DNA of 64,000 nucleotides from Eledone cirrhosa. Lineage: Eukaryota. Positions 7,543-51,328 of this stretch are shown here, one piece after another. The translations under genes and the position numbers were made by a program. Location: contig OZ024743.1 in NCBI GenBank assembly GCA_964016885.1, positions 364,932,001-364,996,000 on the forward strand, written 5' to 3'. How positions within the stretch are numbered: the first letter of the stretch is position 1; each line of letters begins with the position of its first letter. The notes beneath the pieces are model-generated. The model was not told where the DNA came from. It made no database searches and saw nothing but the letters and a program-made list of their open reading frames with translations.

Positions 7543-7586
<44 letters not shown>

Positions 7587-7607
7587 ACACACACATATAT
7601 ATATATA

Positions 7608-7940
7608 TAAAATTGAAAAAGTGGAGAATAACAAGGTCAACAGTACAAAAAAGGGGATTTATTTGCAGTCTAACAGTTGTTTCACTGATAGAGTTGTCTA
7701 AAAATTGCTGAACACTAAAAACAGTGCCACTCAATTTTAAATACGATGTTAACTCTACTAGATCATCAGAAACTGTTTCTGATGATTTAGTAGAGTTAAC
7801 ATCGTATTTAAAATTGAGTGGCACTGTTTTTAGTGTTCCGCAATTTTTAGACAACTCTATCAGTGAAACAACTGTTAGACTGCAAATAAATCCCCTTTTT
7901 TGTACTGTTGACCATGTTATTCTCCTCTTTTTCAATTTTA
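7608..7940. repeat. Near-perfect palindrome, 166-bp arms, 1-nt spacer
   Basis: Axis at 7774 (TCATCAGAAAC-T-GTTTCTGATGA); about 4 mismatches between arms. Confidence 0.97.
7775..7880 (+). ncRNA. Type I hammerhead-ribozyme-like motif with a 79-nt helix II region (mirror copy on - strand at 7668-7773)
   Basis: GUUU-CUGAUGA(7779-85)...UAGAGUU/AACUCUA stem...GAAAC(7865-69)-AACU-GUU-AGAC. Confidence 0.68.
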
Positions 7941-8083
7941 TTACTCCAAGATAAACATACATAGGAATACAAGTGCAATCATAAACTCGTGATCTACGTA
8001 AACCTCTTGTTGAGTCAAGCAACGCCGTACGATAAAACTATCCATAATAAGAAGTATTCACAACCTCTAATTGGATTACCTAT

Positions 8084-8241
<158 letters not shown>

Positions 8242-8242
8242 G

Positions 8243-9135
<893 letters not shown>

Positions 9136-12299: not shown

Positions 12300-15200
12300 G
12301 TAGATAGGTAGGTAGATAGGTAGATAGATAGATAGATAAATTTCTTTATTAGCCACAAGGCAAAAGAAGGGGACGAATACAAATGGGGAGTTTACATACA
12401 GGTATATGAAAATAAAACTATTAATAAAATAACAAATAACAATTGAAATCCCCACTAGGGGGGAGGCGTTACACAGGGGTTGTACACACCCCGAAAAAAT
12501 GTACAACCCTCATCTCCAGGAGCACCAAAAGTGAGTACTTCCCTCCTCTCTTGTTCTTTTTCCTCAACCTACAGGCTTATATAGAGAGAAGGCCCAATCA
12601 CTCGGGCCATTCTCGCCACTTTCACCCACCTTTTATAAAATTTGCTGGGGTACAGTACCTCTCTCTCCATCCTGATTCTTCTTCCAAAATGATATTTGAA
12701 AAAGTGAATCAGTTGTTCGCCGGAGAGAAAGGTGTCTGACCTCAGCCCTTTTAACCTCGTCCACCATATAACCTCTTTCACCATAGCCATAACACATAGG
12801 AAAACCGCCTCTCCTTCGTTTTTGAAGGAGGATAGCGGTTTGATCATGACAATGGACTCGGTGGTCAACTGGATTGGTCCCACCCGCGACAATAGTCGTT
12901 CTACATAGCCCCACAGGTCAGTGACGCCCGGGCAGTGTATGAATGCGTGCGCGACGGTTTCTTCGTCTCGCACGCACCTCGGACAGATCTTTTTTGCAGG
13001 GTCCCTGCCCGGGCGCCCATGTCTGTAGAGCTTGTCTCGAACTGGTAGAGCTCCTCGGTAGCACTGCCAGGCCAGGGACTTTTGGAAGTTGTCCATCGGT
13101 CCCGGGCGGAAGGTCTTACCGAACAGACTGGCCAGTTCGTCTTCCTCTACGCCGAGAGTTTCTCCGAGCGCGTCGTCACACTTGCTGCGGACCAACCCCC
13201 TATAGAATGACGAAGTGGAGTCTCCACTGATCGCCGGGTCCGTTTGCCAGAGGACGGTGAGCGCCTGAGCACATTCGATGTGCCAGTCGCCCATTTTCCT
13301 CGGTCTTTGCTTGACCCAGGACTGCAGCACGGTCAGCGAGACGAGTCGTGAGAAGGCTTGCCTCACGAACGGGGCCCATACCGGTTGCCCGGTGAGGAAT
13401 ACGTGGAGGTGCCGCAGCCTGAGCGCGTGCTGGCGCATCGTCAGCGACGGCATACCCAGCCCTCCGTTGGAAGGGTGTTGGCAACAGATGAATCTTCTCA
13501 CGAAAGGAGCCCGTTTCTTCCAAAGGAATTGGAAGAGCGCGCGCTCCATTTTGGTGAGCGTTTTGGCTGCACAAGGCACGACGGTCAAGCGTTAGTAGAT
13601 GACGGACGCTATAAAAGTGTTCGCCACCTCCGCTCGACCTTCCAAGGATAGTTTGCACTCGGCCCACTTCTGGGTGATCGCAAACATCTTGGCCGTCACC
13701 TCGTTCCAGTTCTTCTCCATCTGGAGGTCCAGACCAAACCAGACCCCGAGCAGCTTTACCAGTCCTTCCGTCCAGCGTCCGACGACGCCATCGGAAGGCA
13801 TCGGTTTGCCTCTCCACGATCCGAGTTACAAACCGACGGATTTGTCCCGGTTCAGCTTCGCTTCTGTGAACCTTTCGTATTCTTTCAGTAAGGTGCCGAC
13901 CTCCCCGATTTGCGAGGTGCTCGACACCATTACTGTTACGTCGCTTTTCGCAGCCCCGGTTCCAAAGGGATGCCCTGCAATAGCTCCAACTTCCGCAGTA
14001 GTGGCTCGAGAGTCAGTACGTACAGAAGGGAGGAGAGAGGGCATCCCTGTCGGATGGATCGCGTGATATGGAACGGCTCCGAGAGGGAGCAGATGTTGCT
14101 GCTGTGAATTGCAGCAATCCAGCCCCTCAACACGAGTCCGAAGCCTGCCGCCTCGAGCACCACATCCAATTAACAATGGTCAACCCTATCGAAAGCCTTA
14201 GACTGATCCAAGTTGATCAGGGCCCCACCGAAGCCGGGTTTACACCCTACCCTCTCTATGATGTATCGCATGAGATGGAGGTTGTCGTGTATGGACCTGG
14301 TCAGGATTGCGCATGTCTGCGCTTCTCCCACCAGGTTTTTGACGACAAGCGCCAGCCTCTTTGCCAACACCTTGGCCAAAATCTGTAACTCTGTGTTTAG
14401 CAGAGTTTTGGGTCGGAAGTTTCCTATGTCATCCGCCTTATTCTCGTCCTTCCTGACCAACGTGACTACGCCCTTGGTCACAGAACTGAGAATTCTCCCG
14501 TTCTGCTGCCAGTTGCAGTAGACCGCTTCCAGGAGACCGGAGAACAACTCCGGCATTGCTACGTAAAATTCGTAGGGTAGACCGTCAAGACCTGGAGATT
14601 TCCGTTTGCCGCATTGGCTCAGCGCGTCCCCTATCTCAACGGCCGAAATCGGCCTTGCAGAACTTCGCCTTGCTGTTTGAGAGTCGCGGCAGGCCGTCGA
14701 GGTATGGATCGAAATCCATAGCCCCTCCCGGAGTGCCGCCCTGCCCGAATAGTTGAGCAAAGTGCCGCTGAAAGGCCGCGCATATCTGCTTCGGCTCACG
14801 TATCACGCATACGTCTTGGTCCTTCAAAGACCGAATCGTGGAATTGTTGCCACTCTTCGCCTCCGTCACTCGGGCCCAGCTAACAGCTTTGTCTCCAACT
14901 CTTATATTGGCCATGTTGGTACTGAAAAGTTAAAAGAAGAGGAAAAGAAATCACTCACCTCATCGTCTCCTGGGGACCAGGCTGCAAAATTTCCATGGGG
15001 GTGTTGGCGGGGTTGTTTGGTGGGGTGGTGGTTTCTGGCGGGGTGGGGACGGAGATGTTTGGTGGGCAAGGAGTGTCTGGTGGGATGGGGGTGCCTGGGG
15101 TGGGGGTGTCTGGGTGGAGGTGGGGAAACATTTTAATAGGACTCGATTGTAGGGTTTGACGCAGGGGTTTCCTATGTCGTTAGGAAATTTTCCTTTTAAC

Positions 15201-34869: not shown

Positions 34870-37800
34870 TTGTTAAGAAAAAGTTACTAACTGACATAGA
34901 AATTTATCAGATCAAGCAATTAGCACAAAGTCAGCGAAGGGAAAATGAAACATGTGTCAATGAAACCGAGGTAAATTGTAACACTTCGAATCCCAGGGTT
35001 GGGGCGGAATCACTGACAGCAGAACAAATTAAAGAAAGGCTCGAAAAAGTGGAGGGAGTGCATGCTCAAGATGAAACTCAAAATGAAAACAATGAGATCG
35101 TAAATGATAAAGAAATGAATGAGAACTTGCCAACTTGAAGAATGAAATTATCATCGAATGGATGAAAATTAAAGAATCTGACATGGGGGAACGAGACACT
35201 CTCCCTAAGATCCAGAACTCCAAACAGAACCAAAAGATAATACACAAGACTAACATAATTCTCAAAAACATTATCATCACAAACAAACTAAACATTACTG
35301 ATCTAAATCATCTCTATTATGCATCGGTTAAAGTCACAACTCACTTATGTGGAGTGAAAATGAAAAAACAAAGGAATTCCCACAAGAAACCTACTTGGCA
35401 AGAAAACATCAATCGCCAAATAAACCTTCTCCGATCTGACATAGAAATTTTAACAAACTACAAAGTAAGTGAACATGTTAAACAAACTAAACTTAGAAAA
35501 TTGAAAAGAAAATACAGTGTAAAATCAACAAGTGACATAGACATACTGATAGAAATAATCAAGCAAAAAGTATCGGCCAAAGCTGCTCGTATAAGGCGCT
35601 TTGAAAAACGATCTAGGACAATAAAGGACAATAATATGTTCAAAGGACAATAAAGGACAATAATATGTTCAAAAACAACCAAAGAAACTTCTACAGAAAA
35701 ATTGGCAAGTCAACAATAACTGCTAAATCAATACCACCCAAGGAGGAAGTGCAAGAATTCTGGGAAAAGATCTGGGCCGAAAAAAAAGTTCATAATATAC
35801 ATGCCCCATGGATAGACAGACAAATGAAAGATACAGCTCACCTTGAGGAACAAACATGGGAAAATATAACAGTTGAACAGTTGCGTTTGGCTCTTAGAAA
35901 AACCAGCAAATGGAATTCCCCAGGAAAAGACAAAATACCAAATTTTTGGATAAATGCCTTCACAGAGTCTCATGAGCTGTTAGCCCAACTTTACAATGAA
36001 ATGGTTAAGGAGCCAGAAAAGATACCATCATGGCTAGTTAACGGCATTACATTCCTACTTCCGAAGAATGATGAGACAAACAATCCCCACAATTACAGAT
36101 CGATAACTTACTTGACCACAATGTATAAGATTTTAACATCAGTCCTAACTGAATATACATATGATCACCTGATAACAAATGATCTATTTCCCAATGAGCA
36201 GAAAGGGTGTAAACGAGGCTCATATGGCTGTAAAGATCAGCTTTTGGTTAACAAAATGATACTGGAAGATTGTCATAATAGACACAAAAATCAATCAATT
36301 GCTTGGATAGATTACAAAAAAGCATTCGATAGTTTGCCACACAGTTGGATTGAAAAATGTTTAGAGATTTTCAAAATATCTCCCGTTGTCAGGAGGTTCC
36401 TGTCATTCAGTATGAAGACATGGAAAACGACATTCCTTTTGAATAGTGAAAAAAAATCACCTGAAGCTGGAGAAGTTAATATTAATTGTGGAATTTTTCA
36501 GGGTGACTCTTTATCACCGCTTTTATTCTGCATCGCACTTATACCATTAAGTAAAATGCTCAATGAAACAAAAATGGATATAAAGTCTATGACAAAACCA
36601 TTAATCTACATGGATGACCTGAAACTATTTGCAAAAAATGATGAACAATTGCAAGGGCTATTATCCACTGTGAAGCAGTTCAGTGATGACATTAAAATGG
36701 AGTTTGGACTAGATAAATGCGCCAAGCAACATTCACCAGAGGAAAGCTGCTGAAAAGTTCAGACATTAATCTTGATCGGGGGAATGTGATTAGAGAACTT
36801 GATCAAGAGGAAACTTACAAATATCTAGGTGTTTGTGAAGGAGACGGAATCAAGCACTCGACAGTGAGGGAAAGGATAAGGAAGGAATGTTACCGCAGAG
36901 TAAGAGCAATCTTAAGAATGGAATTGAATGCAAGGAATAGGATCGATGCCATAAACACGCTTGCCATACCAGTAGTAACCTACAGTTACAATGTCATCAA
37001 CTGGTCAAGCACAGAGATCCGTAGGCTCGATACAAAAATTAGAAAATTCTTAACCATTCACAGAATGCATCACCCTAAGGCAGATACAGATAGAATATAT
37101 CTCCCTAGGAAAGAAGGAGGACGTGGGTTAATCCAGTTAGATATTGCGTTGAAAACTGCAACAATTGGATTATCTACATATCTAAGGGAATCACATGATT
37201 GGATGATCAAACTCATTTTGAAACACGAAAGCATCAAAAGATCATACTCCATTACAAAAGATGCACAAAGATACAGTAATGGACTACACATTTCAGAAGG
37301 TCTATTTACTGCTGAAATGAAAAACACAGAAAAAGCAAAACAGGTAAAAGTAACTGCAAAGAAAGAACTGCTACAGAAACTGGCTAAGAAACGGCAAGAA
37401 AAGCCTCTGTATGGAAAATACCCAGAAAGAGCTAACAATCCTGATGTTGACAAAACTTTAACCCATCAGTGGTTGGCATTCTTTGGACTGAAATCGGAAA
37501 CTTAAGGACTAATTATATCAGCACAAGATCAGTGTCTGCCAACAAAAAAAAACCAAGCCAACATAATAAAAAATGGATGCAACCTATTATGCTGTGTATG
37601 TAAAAAAACAACCAGAGAACATTGATCATATAATTTCAATGTGCAGTCCTATAGCTCCAACCGAATACCTAAACAGGCACGACAGAGCTGGACAATACAT
37701 ACATTCGATAATGTGTAAGCATTTTGACCTGCCCCATCAAAAGAATTGGTGGGAGCATCAACCACCTCCCGTACTTGAAAAAGATCACATCTCAATCTTG

Positions 37801-39075: not shown

Positions 39076-40419
39076 AATTCCTTACATCATCGATTGTTTA
39101 ATAGAATTAGTATTTTTAACTGCGAGTAGATAATCACTCAATCAATAATGGTATTCAGACATTGGCACACTACCAGAAATAATCTTTTTCATATTAGTTC
39201 CATATGCGACACACTTTTAGTCTAATTTTGACTTCAATATATTAATATATTTGTGATACAGTTATTACTAAGCAGACAATTGTATTTATAAAACCTTTTT
39301 GTCTCTCCTTTTATACTGGAGCTTTTCAACTACTGAAGCTTTTGTTCGTTGTTTTGATCCGGTCTATTTCATCACATCAATTTACGGTCATTTCATTTCC
39401 TTTTTGTTGTTTAATTCGACCTCAATTATTTATTTTATTCACAAATACACACACTCTTCGCACACAGACACATGTATATATATGTGTGTGTATTGTAATA
39501 TCTAAAGGGCAGACAGTATTCAAGCTAATAACAAAATCTAGAAAGTGTCTGTATAAGGTACTTTGTTAAACTGCTATATATGTTTCCAAACCGTACCCTG
39601 TTACGGCTTATCACTAGGCTTCTCAATAGAATGATAAACAAATACCTCTAAAAAGAAAATGCGAGAAATTGCGTTAGGAAACGAGATACAAATGGAAAAG
39701 AGTAAAACTAAGAAAAGAGGTGTAAATCCGTGGTCTCTTCCCGTGATGGTGTCAGATGCAAACCTTACTTTTTAACGCATTTCTCGTAACTTCTCGTAAA
39801 GCGCCATATTTGTTTAGTCATCACACAGCCGGACGAATGGCCATAGCGATGTACGATTGTGAAATATTTAGAGCAATTTATCCAAGTACTATATAAAGAC
39901 AAGCACACACACACACACACACACACAATACACACACAATACACACACACAATACACATACACAATACACACAATACACACAATACACACACACAATACA
40001 GACACACACACACACATACACATGCACACATACACACATGTACACACACACACACTCACATATGCACGCATGCACGCGCACACACACATGGGCGCACATG
40101 CATGAACACGCACACACACACACACACACACTTGTGCATACACGCACGCACACTAGGTATGGGAACTTAACAACTGGAAAAAAATTCGTAACTGAAGATT
40201 GTAATCTGAGAAAAGAGAAAACATCTGAAAGAGAAACAATTTTACTTTTTTTGCGTAATTCTCATTTAGACCCAAATGTTAAATATCGAATTTTAATGTA
40301 CCTCAAATGTCGGATCCCGATTCAACCAGCTTGAAATTGAAAAGACACAGGCAAAGCAATAGGCTGCTAAACTTGGAGTTTGTATTTTTAGGCATGATAA
40401 TAAGATAGCGTTTCTTCCC

Positions 40420-40880
40420 CGAAACTCGGAATATCGTTGTCTGGCTCAGGACATCTCTCGTTCTTTAACATCCCAATTGTGAATAGGTGGCAGTAGCTAC
40501 CACGTTGTATATTCTTGATTTTGCGATAATAAACAATTTTATAGGAGGATTACTATCTCGTCTGTTGTTTATAAGCCAAATGTATTTTGAAAGTAAAGTA
40601 GCGTTGCTGTCACTCGTGGCTCTAAAATGAATGGGTGGGCTATGTGTATCTATGATAGTTTTAAAAGTGTTCTCGTTTAACCTGATATACGTTATTAACA
40701 TACTATTTATTAAGTCTATGCCTGCTCTGTATACTATTTCTTACGGGAGGCATTTTCTCTGTAGACGGTAATTAGTTGTTTCTACAATTACATTCAGGCT
40801 GGAATTTTGGTCGTAGCTTGAGATCATACAATTGTAGCTGGTCTTAAAGGAATTTTTATTGACGATATAGTGATAGATAT
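40420..40880 (-). mobile_element. Degenerate Penelope-like (Naiad-type) GIY-YIG fragment
   Basis: CNCR... followed by TYIRLNENTFK and ATLLSKYIW, resembling the YIG.TE..FK.R / LSK.IW motifs. Confidence 0.6.
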
Positions 40881-40935
40881 GAGAAGTACCTATTAGAATC
40901 AACTTACATACATACACTTACACTCACACACACAC

Positions 40936-45720: not shown

Positions 45721-45940
45721 ATCAGTCGTGTGTCACTTCGCGGAGAAGTTTCCGTTAATTTATGTAAGGAAAAAACGTGAGTTTTTAGTTCAATTTTATA
45801 TCATTGTGTAACTTGACCACCCGTCTGGACCTTCAGGTGGTGGGTCAACTCATTTTCGCCCCTTCAGGGGCGGAATATCCATTTAAAAAATTTTTCTCCA
45901 TCGAATCTTGGAAAAAATATTGTAAAATTTTGATTACGTT

Positions 45941-47857
45941 ATGAACGCTGCGTCCAACGATAATGGTGGTGGAGAGGCGGTAAGACTACAAAGCTCGCAG
46001 TCAACAACGTCTTCTTCACTAGATACTATAGAGATGGAAAGACAAAATGAAAATAAAAAAACGAATTCACATCCAAACAACACAAATGACACCAAACAGC
46101 TCAATGACAACAAAAATAACAGCAAAACCAATAATGATGATAAAAGCAACAATGATAACAACAACAAAGAAAAAAATAAAGACAACGCCAATAACACCAG
46201 CATCAAAGACAACAACAACACCAAGGAAAATACGGATGATACCAACATCGGTGACAACAAGAATAACAACAAGAATAACAACAATAATGACAACACCACC
46301 AATACGGATTCCACAAAGAAACCAAAAATCTCCTTTGCGGAGAAAGTTCAAAAGAAAGAACAATTGATATATCTCGACATAACAAATGCTGAACACCTTT
46401 TAAAGGACGCTAAGAGATATGTCACCTTCGAAAAAAATGGTGCTTTCAGCATCAATTCTCCGGTAGAAATTCGCAAGGAAACTGCTCTCAAAACGATAGT
46501 TTTTAGGACAGTTTCCAATTCTACCCGAAAACCAGTCCAATTGTCACAGAAAGATATTGAACTGGTTTTCAAAGATTCAATGAATGATATTGCATTCATT
46601 CAAAGAAGCAAACTTTTTGGGAGTATTTCGGTACTGATGAAGGATCAATTGACGGCCCAAAATTACTCTGTGTCGCCAATTGTATCCAACCTGTACACCT
46701 TTTTCCCTACATACATGGGAAAAAGGACACAAAAGATCAGAATCACAAGTGTCACACCAAAGGTGAACATATGGTGGATACTGTGCGGCTTCATCAATTT
46801 TGATGAAGACAGAATACTGTCAGTAGGCAAGTCCCCCAGAGATGTATTCAATGGGACTAGCATTGAAGTTCTGGTGCAAATGAGCCCAGAGCGAATAGCT
46901 ATGATCCCACAGCGTGTACTCCTGGACGGACTTACCTACATAAACCTTTCGGTTGAGGGTAGGCGGCCTTCATGTTACCATTGCTTTAGCAGGGGTCACC
47001 TGAGGGCTTCCTGTCCTAAACTAATGAACCAAAAAAAGGCTCTTCTGCCAACACCCATCAAAACAACACAACCACCAACACCACCACTACAACAACAACA
47101 CCAACACACAAAAATAACCACAACAAACACAGTCCCACCCAACCTCACTCCACCTAAAACCACTGCAAAATCACATACAGACACAACAGCTCCCCAAGAC
47201 ATACCCCTCCCCAATCACACAGACGATACAACAGATGAGGCTATCTCGCCATCACCCAGTGAAGACGAGGGAGAACCCCATCGCTCGAAAAGAAAGAAAA
47301 GACATCACAAAAGCAAAAAACCAGCAAACACTACCACAAACATACAACCACCAACACAAACAACAAAAATATCACAAACAAAACCCCCACCTCCTGAAAA
47401 CAAAATACCTACAACAAAACGAAAGCACACACAAGAACTACAGACAAAAACAAACACAACACAAGAAAATTACACTTACACTTACATAAACACTGAAAAC
47501 AAAACACTAATGGAGACCATTACGAACGACCCTTCGGTTTTCACCGAAGGGAAAACTTTCGCCCACTCTATAAAAAATAGCAAAAAAATGAACCTAAAAC
47601 TGATTAGGGTCCCTATACAAACTTATAGGTCCCTAAAAGAAACATTTGAGAAGGATGTGGGGAATTCCTGCGTGAAACCACTCAACCGCGTCCTTCTCAA
47701 ATGCCTCCCCACCCCAGACACCCCCATTCCACCAGACCCCACCCCACCAAACATCTGCGTCCCCACCCCGCCGGAAACCACCACCCATCCAGACAACCCC
47801 TCCAACACCCCCATGGAAATCGTGCGGCCTGGTCCCCAGGAGGCGAAGGGTGAGTGA
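45941..47857 (+). CDS. LINE ORF1 protein (gag-like, one CCHC zinc knuckle; Asn-rich N-terminus, Thr/Pro-rich C-terminus)
   Basis: 638 aa open ORF; CYHCFSRGHLRASC matches CX2CX4HX4C; homologous decayed ORF1 at 14960-16640 (-). Confidence 0.9.
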   Translation: MNAASNDNGGGEAVRLQSSQSTTSSSLDTIEMERQNENKKTNSHPNNTNDTKQLNDNKNNSKTNNDDKSNNDNNNKEKNKDNANNTSIKDNNNTKENTDDTNIGDNKNNNKNNNNNDNTTNTDSTKKPKISFAEKVQKKEQLIYLDITNAEHLLKDAKRYVTFEKNGAFSINSPVEIRKETALKTIVFRTVSNSTRKPVQLSQKDIELVFKDSMNDIAFIQRSKLFGSISVLMKDQLTAQNYSVSPIVSNLYTFFPTYMGKRTQKIRITSVTPKVNIWWILCGFINFDEDRILSVGKSPRDVFNGTSIEVLVQMSPERIAMIPQRVLLDGLTYINLSVEGRRPSCYHCFSRGHLRASCPKLMNQKKALLPTPIKTTQPPTPPLQQQHQHTKITTTNTVPPNLTPPKTTAKSHTDTTAPQDIPLPNHTDDTTDEAISPSPSEDEGEPHRSKRKKRHHKSKKPANTTTNIQPPTQTTKISQTKPPPPENKIPTTKRKHTQELQTKTNTTQENYTYTYINTENKTLMETITNDPSVFTEGKTFAHSIKNSKKMNLKLIRVPIQTYRSLKETFEKDVGNSCVKPLNRVLLKCLPTPDTPIPPDPTPPNICVPTPPETTTHPDNPSNTPMEIVRPGPQEAKGE

Positions 47858-47890
47858 TCTCTTTTCCTCTTTTAACTTTTCAGCACCAAC

Positions 47891-50800
47891 ATGGCCAATA
47901 TAAGAGTTGGATGTGTGAACGTACGCGGCCTGGGGATGCCCTGGAAACAGGGCAAACTCTTAAACGACCTCAGGTCGCACAGTTTGGATGTGGTAGCCAT
48001 TTGCGAGTCCAGGATCCACGGCGAGCGACAGCTGGCCCCCATCTTCGATGACTTTGAGATCTACGCATCTCTCTGTCAACCGGGGGGTGGGGGCGGAGTT
48101 GCCGTTTTGCTGCGGAAACACCTGGGCCTCGTAACACAGACGGTACATCTGGACCCGGAGGGTCGACTGGTGGTCCTAGACGTTGACGGTAGTGAAGGTG
48201 GAGCGTTCAGGCTGGTGGCCGCATATGCCCCATCCGGGACACCGCGGCCAGACTTCTTCAAACGTCTAGAGACTTTTCTGGGAACGTCCCGCTCCTTGCT
48301 TTTAGTGGGGGACTGGAATGGAATCCTAGATGCACGTTGGGACTATGTGGGAGCATGTCCCGATAAAGGGGGGTGTAACAGCCTCAAACAGTTAATCGAC
48401 CGATTTGACCTGGCCGATAGATATCGACTAGATTTTCCGACTGCGCCACTGTGGACGTGGAGTAATCGTAGCGGAACATCTAGATCGTACCTAGATAGGG
48501 TTCTAGTTAGAAATAAGGATAGGGACATGTTAAGCTGTCCACAAATGTTCATGGTTGCCTATTCAGATCACAAACTAGTGACCTGCATGGCCAACCTTGA
48601 TAGAACCCATAGACAAGGACCCGGCTACTGGAAGCTGAACTTGTCGTTACCGACAAGCAAAGCCTACAGTAGACGGATTAGCACTTTAGTTAAACAGCAC
48701 TTGACAGGGGCCATTGTCAACAACAGATGGTGGTACTCTCTCAAGAGGGCAGTTAGATTAGACTCGATAGTTTTTAGTAAAGAATTAGCGTTAGATAGAA
48801 ATAGAACCGAGAAGGAACTGGTAGATAAAGTAGAAGAGGCTATTAGAAGTGGCAACGTAGCCAGCGTGCTAGCAACGAGAACGGCCTTGGACCAGTTCTT
48901 CGACGCAAAGCACGAGGGCTGCGTTGTCAGAAGCAAAATACGTGCTCTGGGAAACGAGGGAGCCAAAGCTGTTAGCTGGGCCCGAGTGACGGAGGCAAAA
49001 AGTGGCAACAAGTCCACGATTCGGTCTTTGAAGGACCAAAACGGACGCGTGATACGTGAGCCGAAGCAGATGTGTGCGGCTTTTCAGCGGCACTTTGCTC
49101 GGCTGTTCGGGGGGAGCGGCGCGCCGGGAGAGGCTATGGATTTCGGTCCATACCTCGACGGCCTACCGCGACTCTCGGACAGCGAGGCGAAGTTCTGCGA
49201 AAAGCCGATTTCAGCCACTGAGATAGGGGACGCGCTGAGCCAATGCGGCAAACGCAAATCTCCAGGTCTCGACGGTCTACCCTACGAATTTTACGTAGCA
49301 ATGCCGGACTTATTCTCCGGTCTCCTGGAAGCGGTCTACTGCAACTGGCAACAGAACGGGAGAATTCCCAATTCTGTAACCGGGGGCGTGGTCACACTAA
49401 TCAGGAAGGACGAGAATAAGGGGGATGACATAGGCAACTTCCGGCCCATAACTCTGCTAAACACAGAGTTACAGATTTTGGCCAAGGTGTTGGCAAAGAG
49501 GCTGGCGCTTGTCGTCGAGAACCTGGTGGGAGAAGCGCAGACATGCGCGATCCCGACCAGGTCCATACACGACAACCTCCACCTCATGCGATACATCATA
49601 GAGAGGGTAGGGTGTAAACCCGGCTTCGGTGGGGCCCTGATCAACTTGGATCAGTCTAAGGCTTTCGATAGGGTTGACCATCGTTACCTGGATGCGGTGC
49701 TCGAGGCGGCAGGCTTCGGACCCGTGTTCAGGGGCTGGATTGCTGCAATGCACAACAGCAACATCTGCTCAAGGGTCAAGGTGAACGGTTACCTCTCGGA
49801 GCCGTTCCATATTACGCGATCCATTCGACAGGGATGCCCTCTCTCCTCCCTTCTGTACGTACTGACTCTCGAGCCACTACTGCGGAAGCTGGAGCTATTG
49901 CAGGGCATCCCTCTGGAACCGGGACTGCGGAAAGCGGCGTCGGCCTACGCCGACGACGTGACAGTAATGGTGTCGAGCGCCTCGCAAATCGAGGAAGTCG
50001 GCACCTTACTAAAGGAATACGAAAGTCTCACAGGAGCGAAGCTGAACCGGGACAAGTCCATCGGTTTGCAACTCGGATCGTGGAGAGGCAGACCGATGCC
50101 TTCCGATGGCGTCGTCGGACGCTGGACGGAAGGACCGGTAAAGCTGCTCGGGGTCTGGTTTGGTCCGGACCTCCAGGTGGAGAAGAACTGGAACGAAGTG
50201 ACGGCCAAGGTGTTTGCACTCACCCAGAAGTGGGCCGAGTGCAAACTATCCTTGAAAGGTCGAGCGGAGGTGGCGAACACTTTTATAGCGTCCGCCATCT
50301 ACTACCGCTTGACCGTCGTGCCTTGTCCAGCCAAAACGCTCGCCAAAATGGAGCGCGCCCTCTTCCGATTCCTTTGGAAGAGGCGGGCTCCTTTGGTAAG
50401 AAGATCCATCTGCTGCCAACACCCTTCTAACGGAGGGCTGGGGATGCCGTGGTTGACGATGCGCAAACACGCGCTCAGGCTGCGGCATCTCTACGTATTC
50501 CTCACCGGACAACCGGTGTGGGCCCCGTTCGTGAGGCGAGCCTTCCCACGACTCGTCTCGCTGACCGAGCTGCAGTCCTGGGTCAAGCAGAGACCGAGGA
50601 AAATGGGCGACTGGCACATCGAATGTGCTCAGGCGCTCACAGCCCTCTGGCAGGCGGACCCGGCGATCAGTGGAGACTCCACTTCGTCATTCTATAGAGG
50701 GTTGGTCCGCAGCAAGTGCGACGACGCGCTCGGTGAAACTCTAGGCGTGGAGGAAGATGAACTGGCCAGTCTGTTCGGTAGGACCTTCCGCCCGGGACCG

Positions 50801-51328
50801 ATGGACAACTTCCAAAAGTCCCTGGCCTGGCAGTGCTACCGAGGAGCTCTACCAGTTCGAGACAAGCTCTACAGACATGGGCGCCCGGGCAGGGACCCTG
50901 CAAAAAAGATCTGTCCGAGGTGCGTGCGAGACGAAGAAACCGTCGCGCACGCATTCATACACTGCCCGGGCGTCACTGACCTGTGGGGCTATGTGGAACG
51001 ACTATTGTCGCGGGTGGGACCAATCCAGTTGACCACCGAGTCCATTGTCATGATCAAACCGCCACCCTCCTTCAAAAACGAAGGAGAGCGGGTTTTCCTT
51101 TGTGTGATAGCTATGGCGAAAGAGGTTGTATGGTGGACAAGGTTGAAAGGGCTGAGGTCAGACACCTTTCTCTCCGGCCAACAACTGATTCTTTTTTTCA
51201 AATACCACTTTGGAAGAAGAATCAGGATGGAGAGAGAGGTGCTGTACCCCAGCAAGTTTTATGAAAGGTGGGTGAAAGTGGCGAGAATGGCCCGAGTGAA
51301 TGGGCCTTCTCTCTATATCAGCCTGTAG
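47891..51328 (+). CDS. LINE ORF2: APE endonuclease, reverse transcriptase and C-terminal zinc finger
   Basis: 1145 aa; NVRGL, VGDWN, YLDRV, SDH (APE); GPGYWKLN linker; KSPGLDGL, FRPITLLN, DQSKAFDRVDH, RQGCPLS, YADD (RT); CPRC...ETVAHAFIHC. Confidence 0.96.
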   Translation: MANIRVGCVNVRGLGMPWKQGKLLNDLRSHSLDVVAICESRIHGERQLAPIFDDFEIYASLCQPGGGGGVAVLLRKHLGLVTQTVHLDPEGRLVVLDVDGSEGGAFRLVAAYAPSGTPRPDFFKRLETFLGTSRSLLLVGDWNGILDARWDYVGACPDKGGCNSLKQLIDRFDLADRYRLDFPTAPLWTWSNRSGTSRSYLDRVLVRNKDRDMLSCPQMFMVAYSDHKLVTCMANLDRTHRQGPGYWKLNLSLPTSKAYSRRISTLVKQHLTGAIVNNRWWYSLKRAVRLDSIVFSKELALDRNRTEKELVDKVEEAIRSGNVASVLATRTALDQFFDAKHEGCVVRSKIRALGNEGAKAVSWARVTEAKSGNKSTIRSLKDQNGRVIREPKQMCAAFQRHFARLFGGSGAPGEAMDFGPYLDGLPRLSDSEAKFCEKPISATEIGDALSQCGKRKSPGLDGLPYEFYVAMPDLFSGLLEAVYCNWQQNGRIPNSVTGGVVTLIRKDENKGDDIGNFRPITLLNTELQILAKVLAKRLALVVENLVGEAQTCAIPTRSIHDNLHLMRYIIERVGCKPGFGGALINLDQSKAFDRVDHRYLDAVLEAAGFGPVFRGWIAAMHNSNICSRVKVNGYLSEPFHITRSIRQGCPLSSLLYVLTLEPLLRKLELLQGIPLEPGLRKAASAYADDVTVMVSSASQIEEVGTLLKEYESLTGAKLNRDKSIGLQLGSWRGRPMPSDGVVGRWTEGPVKLLGVWFGPDLQVEKNWNEVTAKVFALTQKWAECKLSLKGRAEVANTFIASAIYYRLTVVPCPAKTLAKMERALFRFLWKRRAPLVRRSICCQHPSNGGLGMPWLTMRKHALRLRHLYVFLTGQPVWAPFVRRAFPRLVSLTELQSWVKQRPRKMGDWHIECAQALTALWQADPAISGDSTSSFYRGLVRSKCDDALGETLGVEEDELASLFGRTFRPGPMDNFQKSLAWQCYRGALPVRDKLYRHGRPGRDPAKKICPRCVRDEETVAHAFIHCPGVTDLWGYVERLLSRVGPIQLTTESIVMIKPPPSFKNEGERVFLCVIAMAKEVVWWTRLKGLRSDTFLSGQQLILFFKYHFGRRIRMEREVLYPSKFYERWVKVARMARVNGPSLYISL

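What the first reader, a model, noticed from the sequence alone, without database searches (positions are those of the whole stretch)
7608..7940. 333-bp palindrome whose arms are divergent hammerhead ribozymes with an oversized helix II
Seen: reading outward from the axis (7774), each arm gives helix I GUUU, CUGAUGA, a 79-nt helix II region closed by UAGAGUU/AACUCUA, GAAAC, quasi-palindromic helix III ACAACUGU, a GUU site and AGAC pairing back to helix I. The fold-back point is exactly the 5' edge of helix I, and the left arm abuts (TA)n. Known: Penelope-like elements carry minimal type I hammerheads in their terminal repeats and can form inverted ends, but helix II is usually short. Inference: a non-coding fold-back, ribozyme-bearing mobile unit (inverted terminal repeat or retrozyme-like).
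Basis: partly seen in the sequence, partly recalled or inferred. Interest (0 to 1): 0.75.

Follow-up and report, generated by a model that had tools for sequence, protein, structure and literature searches.

The report
Penelope fold-back stub, long-helix hammerhead
This palindrome is the mirror-image end of an abundant jumping gene, likely of the Penelope (Hydra) type, inserted in a TA repeat in a known arrangement and predicted to be inert; the family's ribozyme-like motif has an unusually long second helix, and many copies fold back at the very same base.

Summary
The palindrome is real: two 167-nt arms, 4 mismatches, axis 7774. It is not a free-standing non-coding unit. The arm is the 3' end of a repeat with at least 324 exact-motif copies. 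Longer copies carry a broken ORF with the Hydra-clade Penelope motifs. The insertion runs on to 8081: one arm stops at the family's short end (+167), the other enters a ~170-nt tail, and both end in (TA)n, as in 35 of 39 head-to-head junctions. The type I hammerhead motif is family-wide, with a 79-nt helix II, a palindromic helix III and, in 119 of 158 arms, a CCGA (U4C) core. Structural support is modest (two compensatory pairs); cleavage is untested. The window copy has a damaged helix III and would be locked in a hairpin. The axis is not the edge of helix I, which extends further in intact copies. It is a recurrent junction: 27 loci match the same-axis pattern, across subfamilies, centred on a self-complementary AAC-N-GTT. 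Likely mechanism: two separately primed cDNAs joined by microhomology. The scan reported this kind of insertion earlier on other DNA. Known architecture, minor new ribozyme variant.

The parts
7595..7606 (.). (TA)n target remnant left of the insertion (after a CA tract at 7544-7595)
   Evidence: sequence; tandem repeats
7607..7773 (-). Short arm: element positions +1 to +167, ending at the family's short 3' end
   Evidence: 85 of 188 family arms end at +156..+168, 82 of them into (TA)n
7666..7775 (-). Type I hammerhead motif, left copy: 6-bp helix I, CUGAUGA 7769-7763, 79-nt helix II, GAAA, helix III with a T>C change at 7676, predicted cut after 7672
   Evidence: activity not tested
7771..7777 (.). 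Junction heptamer AAC-T-GTT (family AAC-A-GTT), self-complementary at 6 of 7 positions; axis base 7774
   Evidence: same-axis pattern at 27 loci
7775..7882 (+). Type I hammerhead motif, right copy: helix I cut to 4 bp by the junction, CUGAUGA 7779-7785, helix II 7786-7864, GAAA 7865-7868, helix III 7868-7875 with T>C at 7872, predicted cut after 7876
   Evidence: activity not tested
7775..7941 (+). Long arm, mirrored part: element positions +1 to +167
7942..8081 (+).
   Evidence: 94% identity to the full-length copy in L038 over 7771-8084
8081..8241 (.). (TA)n/TAAA array right of the insertion

Best explanation
The palindrome is a 5'-truncated, head-to-head pair of 3' ends of an abundant retrotransposon, likely a Hydra-clade Penelope-like element, likely made at insertion into (TA)n by two separately primed cDNAs joined at a short self-complementary site, and predicted to be inert at this locus. 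Shown: the arm is the 3' end of a 3.5-kb element with a (broken) RT-endonuclease ORF; the family has two fixed 3' ends (+167 and about +338), both into (TA)n; head-to-head pairs nearly always have one of each; junctions cluster at the 5' edge of the hammerhead motif. Inferred: the element's endonuclease breaks (TA)n; the RT primes each broken end at one of two internal start sites on the element RNA, as shown in vitro for an Anolis PLE; both cDNAs run towards the 5' end and often stop near the U-rich stretch just upstream of the ribozyme; their 3' ends anneal through AAC-N-GTT with a central mismatch and are repaired into a palindrome with one unpaired base. The hammerhead is a passenger of the pseudo-LTR. 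In the parent element it would need a second copy (palindromic helix III) and probably protein help, and with U4C it is likely slow. In the window a transcript across both arms would form a perfect hairpin that buries both motifs.
For: Family and ORF: 45 matches from 40 scored of 2203 candidates; 324 exact pattern matches; RWK, DKT, YRDD, YIG, CxxC and CxH motifs in order in the full-length copy L038; CNCHLPDKC linker and one Cys only before YIG; 101 homologues of 571-810 aa at E<=1e-10, the best aligning along the whole ORF. These match the Hydra description in PMC8557442 section 11. Two ends: 85 short, 87 long, 16 other of 188 arms; (TA)n follows 82 of 85 and 75 of 87; 35 of 39 direct junction pairs are long+short. 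Against copying of one cDNA by snap-back: in 14 of 39 pairs the long arm starts more than 10 nt downstream of the short arm, in four (L003, L023, L176, L190) beyond +167 so that the arms do not overlap; the RNA-sense A sits in the tail-bearing arm in 8 and in the other arm in 5 of 13 same-axis pairs; a 1-nt hairpin loop is sterically impossible (established knowledge). Hotspot: 9 of 57 5' ends picked without regard to the 5' end fall in -7..+7, against 1.4 expected of the 36 in -300..+95 (p 6e-6) or 2.3 of the 30 in -100..+95 (p 3e-4); 39 same-axis matches at 27 loci, control 0. Precedent: two RT start sites bounding the tail, both target strands extended, uncleaved RNA as template (PMC11167929). 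Inertness: hairpin -264.7 kcal/mol against -114.6 with the hammerhead enforced; helix III self-duplex -1.0 against -6.4 for the family form.
Against: Clade assignment rests on motifs and by-eye comparison with the published alignment; no tree was built, and Pfam and PDB searches named no RT or GIY-YIG domain. The unit is about 3.5 kb, longer than the usual <3 kb of Hydra elements. The two-primer model is inferred from end geometry only; the two arms usually share subfamily markers and private changes, which also fits one template copied twice or later conversion between arms. Junction positions come from BLAST ends (a few nt of error), the uniform null is crude, and the 39-pair set includes loci picked for the axis or the tail. 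Why cDNAs stop at -7..+7 is not settled.
Confidence: 0.88

Rival explanations
1. A non-autonomous fold-back or retrozyme-like unit that spreads as the palindrome itself.
For: 27 loci match the same-axis pattern; 19 of the 21 fetched have a mirror arm; the window unit is non-coding and carries hammerhead motifs. Animal retrozymes are proposed to derive from PLE pseudo-LTRs (bioRxiv 10.64898/2026.07.22.740005).
Against: Same-axis copies carry different subfamily markers at 12 diagnostic positions; most junctions lie elsewhere; arms are unequal; no head-to-tail array of a short monomer was seen in the loci aligned, only partial tandems.
Confidence: 0.04
2. Same element, but the inversion arises by snap-back or template switch of a single cDNA that then copies itself.
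For: 16 of 39 junctions are symmetric within 10 nt and 9 have the long arm reaching further 5'; tiny hairpins without a second arm occur at the junction (L007, L084); arms share private changes.
Against: Cannot make the 14 pairs whose long arm starts downstream of the short arm, nor explain the A/T centre falling either way. It may still act in some insertions.
Confidence: 0.2
3. The junction hotspot marks an RNA processing boundary (a 3' splice site or transcription start at the 5' edge of helix I) and not a sequence-driven stall plus microhomology.
For: Young copies read as a pyrimidine tract plus CAG at this place; in D. virilis Penelope the intron end maps to the 5' end of helix I (PMC4209133). 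Several cDNAs end at -4..+2 without using the heptamer symmetrically.
Against: The older subfamily lacks the pyrimidine tract; CAG is also required by helix I pairing; no junction showed a shared foreign exon upstream of +2.
Confidence: 0.25
4. The motif is a decayed hammerhead that no longer cleaves in any copy of the family.
For: U4C in 119 of 158 arms; U4C lowers activity considerably in vitro (PMC3088659); 0 of 57 5' ends lie at the cut site (+98..+108); the hammerhead fold is 3-11 kcal/mol above the monomer MFE; covariation was not significant in the 58-sequence set; flanks are almost as conserved as the core.
Against: Between subfamilies the core differs only at N7, the cut-site base varies between U and C (127 and 28 of 158, G once), helix I keeps pairing (U-G to C-G) and basal helix II has two compensatory pairs. 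PLE hammerheads are known to be weak as monomers and protein-assisted.
Confidence: 0.3

Closest known systems
Hydra-clade Penelope-like elements (Craig et al. 2021, PMC8557442), e.g. Penelope-13_HM and Hydra-1_Obim
   Same: RWK, DKT, CxCX5C linker, no CCHH, CxxC/CxH in a C-terminal GIY-YIG; (TA)n insertion; sense type I hammerhead near the 3' end, often with U.U at the base of helix II and a palindromic helix III; Penelope-13_HM is listed with a 5'-truncated inverted copy.
   Different: A distinct family from Hydra-1_Obim (different N-terminus and hammerhead, by eye). Helix II spans 79 nt with a 55-nt interior against loops of 3-10 nt in the listed Hydra hammerheads; the majority core is CCGA; the unit is about 3.5 kb; the tail is about 170 nt against the 30-40 bp given as typical.
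PAc (Poseidon from Anolis carolinensis; Frangieh et al. 2024, PMC11167929)
   Same: Two fixed 3' ends bounding an optional tail; AT-rich targets; hammerhead in the pseudo-LTR; no sign that cleaved RNA is the template.
   Different: Other clade; there the ORF starts inside the hammerhead, here about 290 nt downstream of the cut site; inverted-pair formation was not described in the parts read.
[quoted passage not shown]
   Same: Palindromic helix III, predicted dimer dependence, pairs on opposite strands 100-700 bp apart reported in Schistosoma.
   Different: Helix II there is 6-8 bp at most in the passages read; here 11 bp plus two nested predicted helices.
Non-LTR retrozymes (Cervera and de la Pena 2020, PMC7229834)
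   Same: Type I hammerhead, non-coding at this locus, low GC.
   Different: Retrozymes are head-to-tail arrays of 170-400-nt monomers; this is a head-to-head pair continuous with a coding retroelement.

Membership tests
Hydra-clade PLE | Single ORF with RT followed by C-terminal GIY-YIG-type endonuclease | tested here: met
   YRDD and YIG in order upstream of the hammerhead; homologue P0001 aligns over residues 23-714 of 715. The copies translated are broken by stops or frameshifts. Pfam gave no name.
Hydra-clade PLE | N-terminal RWK motif and DKT in place of DKG | tested here: met
   IRWKAY and ADKTSN
Hydra-clade PLE | CxCX5C linker; CCHH absent; CxxC and CxH flanking the conserved E and N | tested here: met
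   CNCHLPDKC, one Cys before YIG, CGLC before E and CRH
Hydra-clade PLE | Insertion into (TA)n | tested here: met
   82 of 85 short ends and 75 of 87 long ends
Hydra-clade PLE | Length generally under 3 kb | tested here: not met
   Repeat unit about 3.5 kb in L038; the paper gives this as a tendency, not a rule
Hydra-clade PLE | Phylogenetic placement of the RT | not tested
   No tree with reference PLE sequences was built
EN+ PLE insertion architecture | Pseudo-LTR from partial tandem, adjacent inverted 5'-truncated copy, tail at one end only | tested here: met
   L038 and L059 have a 5' partial copy before the ORF; 35 of 39 junction pairs have the tail on one arm only
Type I hammerhead ribozyme | Core CUGANGA / GAAA / NUH | tested here: inconclusive
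   Met in both window arms; family majority has U4C (119 of 158), other core positions 150-155 of 158
Type I hammerhead ribozyme | Three helices around the core with covariation | tested here: inconclusive
   92-93% of cells paired; two compensatory pairs in basal helix II, score above 500 of 500 shuffles in the 37-sequence set but only two inherited events; not significant in the 58-sequence set; inner helices show no double changes
Type I hammerhead ribozyme | Match to Rfam hammerhead models | tested here: not met
   No match at gathering score in the window; no hammerhead family among 22 matches at E<=10; the long helix II likely explains this
Type I hammerhead ribozyme | Self-cleavage after H17 | not testable with these tools
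   Needs an in vitro assay
Non-LTR retrozyme | Head-to-tail array of short monomers, no link to an ORF | tested here: not met
Fold-back / MITE-type DNA transposon (features recalled) | Fixed terminal inverted repeats at both ends, spread as one unit | tested here: not met
   Arms unequal, junctions variable, same-axis copies from different subfamilies

The most novel reading that the evidence does not exclude
This family records at genome scale how Penelope inversions are made: the two ends of a (TA)n break are primed at two fixed RNA sites about 170 nt apart, and the 5' edge of the hammerhead is a programmed stop-and-join site that yields about one in nine of the arms reaching it as exact palindromes. 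The ribozyme is an active, dimer- or protein-dependent hammerhead with a U4C core and a 79-nt helix II that standard models miss, one of several long-helix hammerheads (up to 96 nt) in this genome.
Probability: 0.3. Interest if true: 0.6.

Novelty: new variant of a known kind. Interest (0 to 1): 0.3.

Why it matters
The locus itself is most likely neutral transposon debris. The family matters modestly for two reasons. First, hammerheads with helix II spans of 30-96 nt escape Rfam and short-spacer descriptors, so ribozyme counts in PLEs may be too low, and a natural U4C core kept across subfamilies is a ready test of protein- or dimer-assisted cleavage. Second, how PLEs form inverted ends and tails is an open question named in PMC8557442; the long-end/short-end rule and the recurrent junction give concrete predictions for an existing type of in vitro assay.

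Tried and rejected
Rfam: nothing at gathering score; sub-threshold hits were generic hairpin families driven by the palindrome. RNAalifold on 58 copies gave only the inner hairpin, not the hammerhead, with no double changes. Pfam on ORF pieces and four homologues, and PDB sequence search, named no relevant domain. The protein Atlas gave no result. Sequencing runs: no RNA holder listed; three contig sets of unknown kind were laid and showed family variation and strand-changing joints only, which says nothing on expression, splicing or cleavage. A first strict same-axis pattern found 3 loci; the looser one found 27. The idea that the window's CUGA is only CpG decay of CCGA: genome-wide, the first 100 listed matches were CCG 53, CTG 44, CCA 3 (hand count), so CTG lineages exist; within the window's own subfamily C is the majority (41 of 45), so decay or reversion remains likely for this copy. 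Insertion from cleaved RNA: 0 of 57 5' ends at the cut site. A first tally with too short a duplicate key dropped real loci and was redone. A by-sequence look-up in earlier scan findings found nothing.

Full report
Numbering: arm position +1 is window 7775 on the right arm and 7773 on the left arm (minus strand).

1. The observation. The inverted repeat has arms 7607-7773 and 7775-7941, 167 nt each, with one T between them and 4 mismatches. Rfam does not recognise them. My own descriptor, allowing up to 130 nt in helix II and U or C at position 4, found both window arms and no other site in the window.

2. It is the end of a high-copy repeat. A search of the own genome gave 45 matches from 40 scored of 2203 candidates, and a 21-nt pattern has 324 exact matches, control 0. 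In most copies family sequence continues upstream of +1 and often downstream of +167. In the window the right arm continues to about 8081 and ends in a TA array, so the insertion is 7607-8081 and the palindrome is only the overlap of two unequal arms.

3. The parent element. Upstream of the motif, longer copies carry a broken ORF. L059 and L038 reach the N-terminus and have a partial 5' copy of the terminal region before it; L038 also has an inverted copy attached. The repeat unit is about 3.5 kb. Motifs RWK, DKT, YRDD, YIG, CxxC and CxH lie in order, with a CNCHLPDKC linker and no CCHH. These are the features given for the Hydra clade (PMC8557442 section 11), and the sequence resembles the published Hydra alignment by eye. 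A homologue search among longer proteins found 101 at E<=1e-10 of 1725 candidates, mostly 700-720 aa; the best covers the whole ORF. Pfam and PDB gave no domain name and no tree was built, so the clade call rests on motifs.

4. Architecture of insertions. Of 188 distinct arms, 85 end at +156..+168, 87 at +310 or beyond and 16 elsewhere; (TA)n follows 82 of 85 and 75 of 87. Of 39 direct head-to-head junctions, 35 pair a short end with a long end (the set includes loci picked for the tail or the axis). This is the structure drawn for EN+ PLEs: an inverted 5'-truncated copy and a tail at one end only (PMC8557442). The tail here is about 170 nt.

5. The hammerhead. In 158 arms with the whole motif, core positions other than 4, 7 and 17 are kept in 150-155; position 4 is C in 119 and U in 39; N7 is U or A; the cut-site base is U in 127, C in 28, G in 1; helix III is the perfect palindrome ACAATTGT in 137; helix II spans 79 nt in 130. 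Helix II opens with U.U, as in many Hydra hammerheads of the paper's File S2, whose loops are 3-10 nt (35 nt at most in that table, in a non-Hydra PLE). An older subfamily has GUC at the cut site, a bulged helix I and a basal helix II of 9 consecutive pairs. Pair counts: in 58 mostly young copies 93% of cells pair but covariation is not above shuffles (65 of 500). In 37 ungapped copies (17 young, 20 older; copies with indels left out) two adjacent pairs change on both sides and the score beats all 500 shuffles, but these are two inherited events and the count of such pairs is not significant. The inner helices show only one-sided changes. Flanks differ between subfamilies at 1 of 55 and 4 of 163 positions, so core conservation alone proves little; basal helix II differs at 7 of 22 and mostly keeps pairing. 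The helix II domain folds at z -2.7 and -2.9 in the window arms and -0.3 to -2.5 in four other copies. Other hammerhead-like families in the fetched loci have helix II spans of 11 to 96 nt (35 hits beside 73 of this length class), so long helix II is not unique to this family here. I put a real, still selected ribozyme in the parent at about 0.7.

6. The window copy. Both arms share two departures from their subfamily (C to T at +6, T to C at +98); within the mirrored part the right arm has three more and the left one. The +98 change drops the helix III self-duplex from -6.4 to -1.0 kcal/mol; the junction cuts the right helix I to 4 bp; a transcript across both arms folds at -264.7 against -114.6 kcal/mol with a hammerhead enforced. 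The locus is predicted inert.

7. The axis. It lies inside helix I, not at its edge. It is, however, a real hotspot. The same-axis pattern has 39 matches at 27 loci (my count), about 11% of the 341 arms matching this region exactly (324 plus 17 T-centred). Of 21 loci fetched, 19 have a mirror arm, and they span several subfamilies. Among 57 arms picked by downstream sequence, 9 have their 5' end in -7..+7 (p 6e-6 or 3e-4 under two uniform nulls) and none at the cut site. The centre is the heptamer AAC-A-GTT, which pairs with itself at 6 of 7 positions.

8. Mechanism. For the Anolis element PAc, RT starts at two internal RNA sites that bound the tail, both target strands are cut and extended, and uncleaved RNA is the template (PMC11167929). 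Applying this, I infer that each end of a (TA)n break primes one cDNA, at +167 and at about +338, and that the cDNA 3' ends are joined by microhomology. This resembles L1 twin priming (recalled). It explains the long/short rule, the 14 of 39 pairs whose long arm starts downstream of the short arm (four without overlap) and the centre base falling either way (8 against 5). Single-cDNA snap-back may account for some. Why cDNAs stop near -3 is open: a U tract with weak RNA:DNA pairing, or an RNA boundary such as the intron end that maps to helix I in D. virilis Penelope (PMC4209133); the older subfamily lacks the pyrimidine tract.

9. Literature seen. PMC8557442: passages, section 11, supplement part 2 and supplement passages. 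PMC11167929: parts 1-2 of 4. PMC4209133: abstract and parts 1-2 of 4. PMC3088659, PMC7229834, PMC13725137, PMC6431247: passages. bioRxiv 10.64898/2026.07.22.740005: part 1 of 5; its supplements were not seen and concern vertebrates mostly. Six searches showed no listing that describes a natural PLE hammerhead with a helix II this long or a twin-priming account of PLE inversions; the library lacks most subscription papers and Repbase or Dfam may hold this family. 'Long helix II' in PMC13725137 means 6-8 bp.

10. Verdict. A known insertion by-product of a probably undescribed family of a known clade. Earlier scan notes reached the same reading on other DNA. The residual interest is the long-helix U4C hammerhead and the junction hotspot. 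Interest 0.3.

Noticed in passing
window 8241-8660, minus strand: A second dispersed repeat ends in the same TA array. Copies elsewhere are 85-95% alike and also show two 3' ends (into (TA)n, or with a ~40-nt extension). It has CTGATGA near its end but no complete hammerhead by my descriptor; likely another (TA)n-targeting PLE end.
   Followed up: partly
window 40402-40899, minus strand: Remnant of a Hydra-type linker/endonuclease region from another family (tblastn E about 1e-10).
   Followed up: no
L076:2109 (+), L034:5139 (+) and 4245 (-), L066:7849 (+) and 7480 (-), L018:99 (+): Other type I hammerhead-like motifs with palindromic helix III and helix II spans of 96, 54, 45 and 36 nt; several occur as inverted pairs. 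The L076 motif folds into a full hammerhead-like three-way shape with a branched helix II.
   Followed up: partly
L005, L009, L012, L075, L110, L172 at element position about -61; window 25337-26137: Several family copies are interrupted at about -61 by the same short repeat, which also forms a 4-copy 199-bp tandem in the window; a preferred insertion site in the AT-rich 3' UTR or one duplicated composite.
   Followed up: no
window 45926-51325 (+), 35635-37502 (+), 12572-14802 (-), 18538-19452 (+): Long ORFs that look like non-LTR retrotransposon proteins, including an open 1150-aa frame at 47876-51325; identity judged by eye only.
   Followed up: no
L041, L043, L133, L151, L156 junctions: Some same-axis junctions carry 14-25-nt duplications of the hammerhead's 5' end, suggesting repeated priming attempts at this site.
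   Followed up: partly
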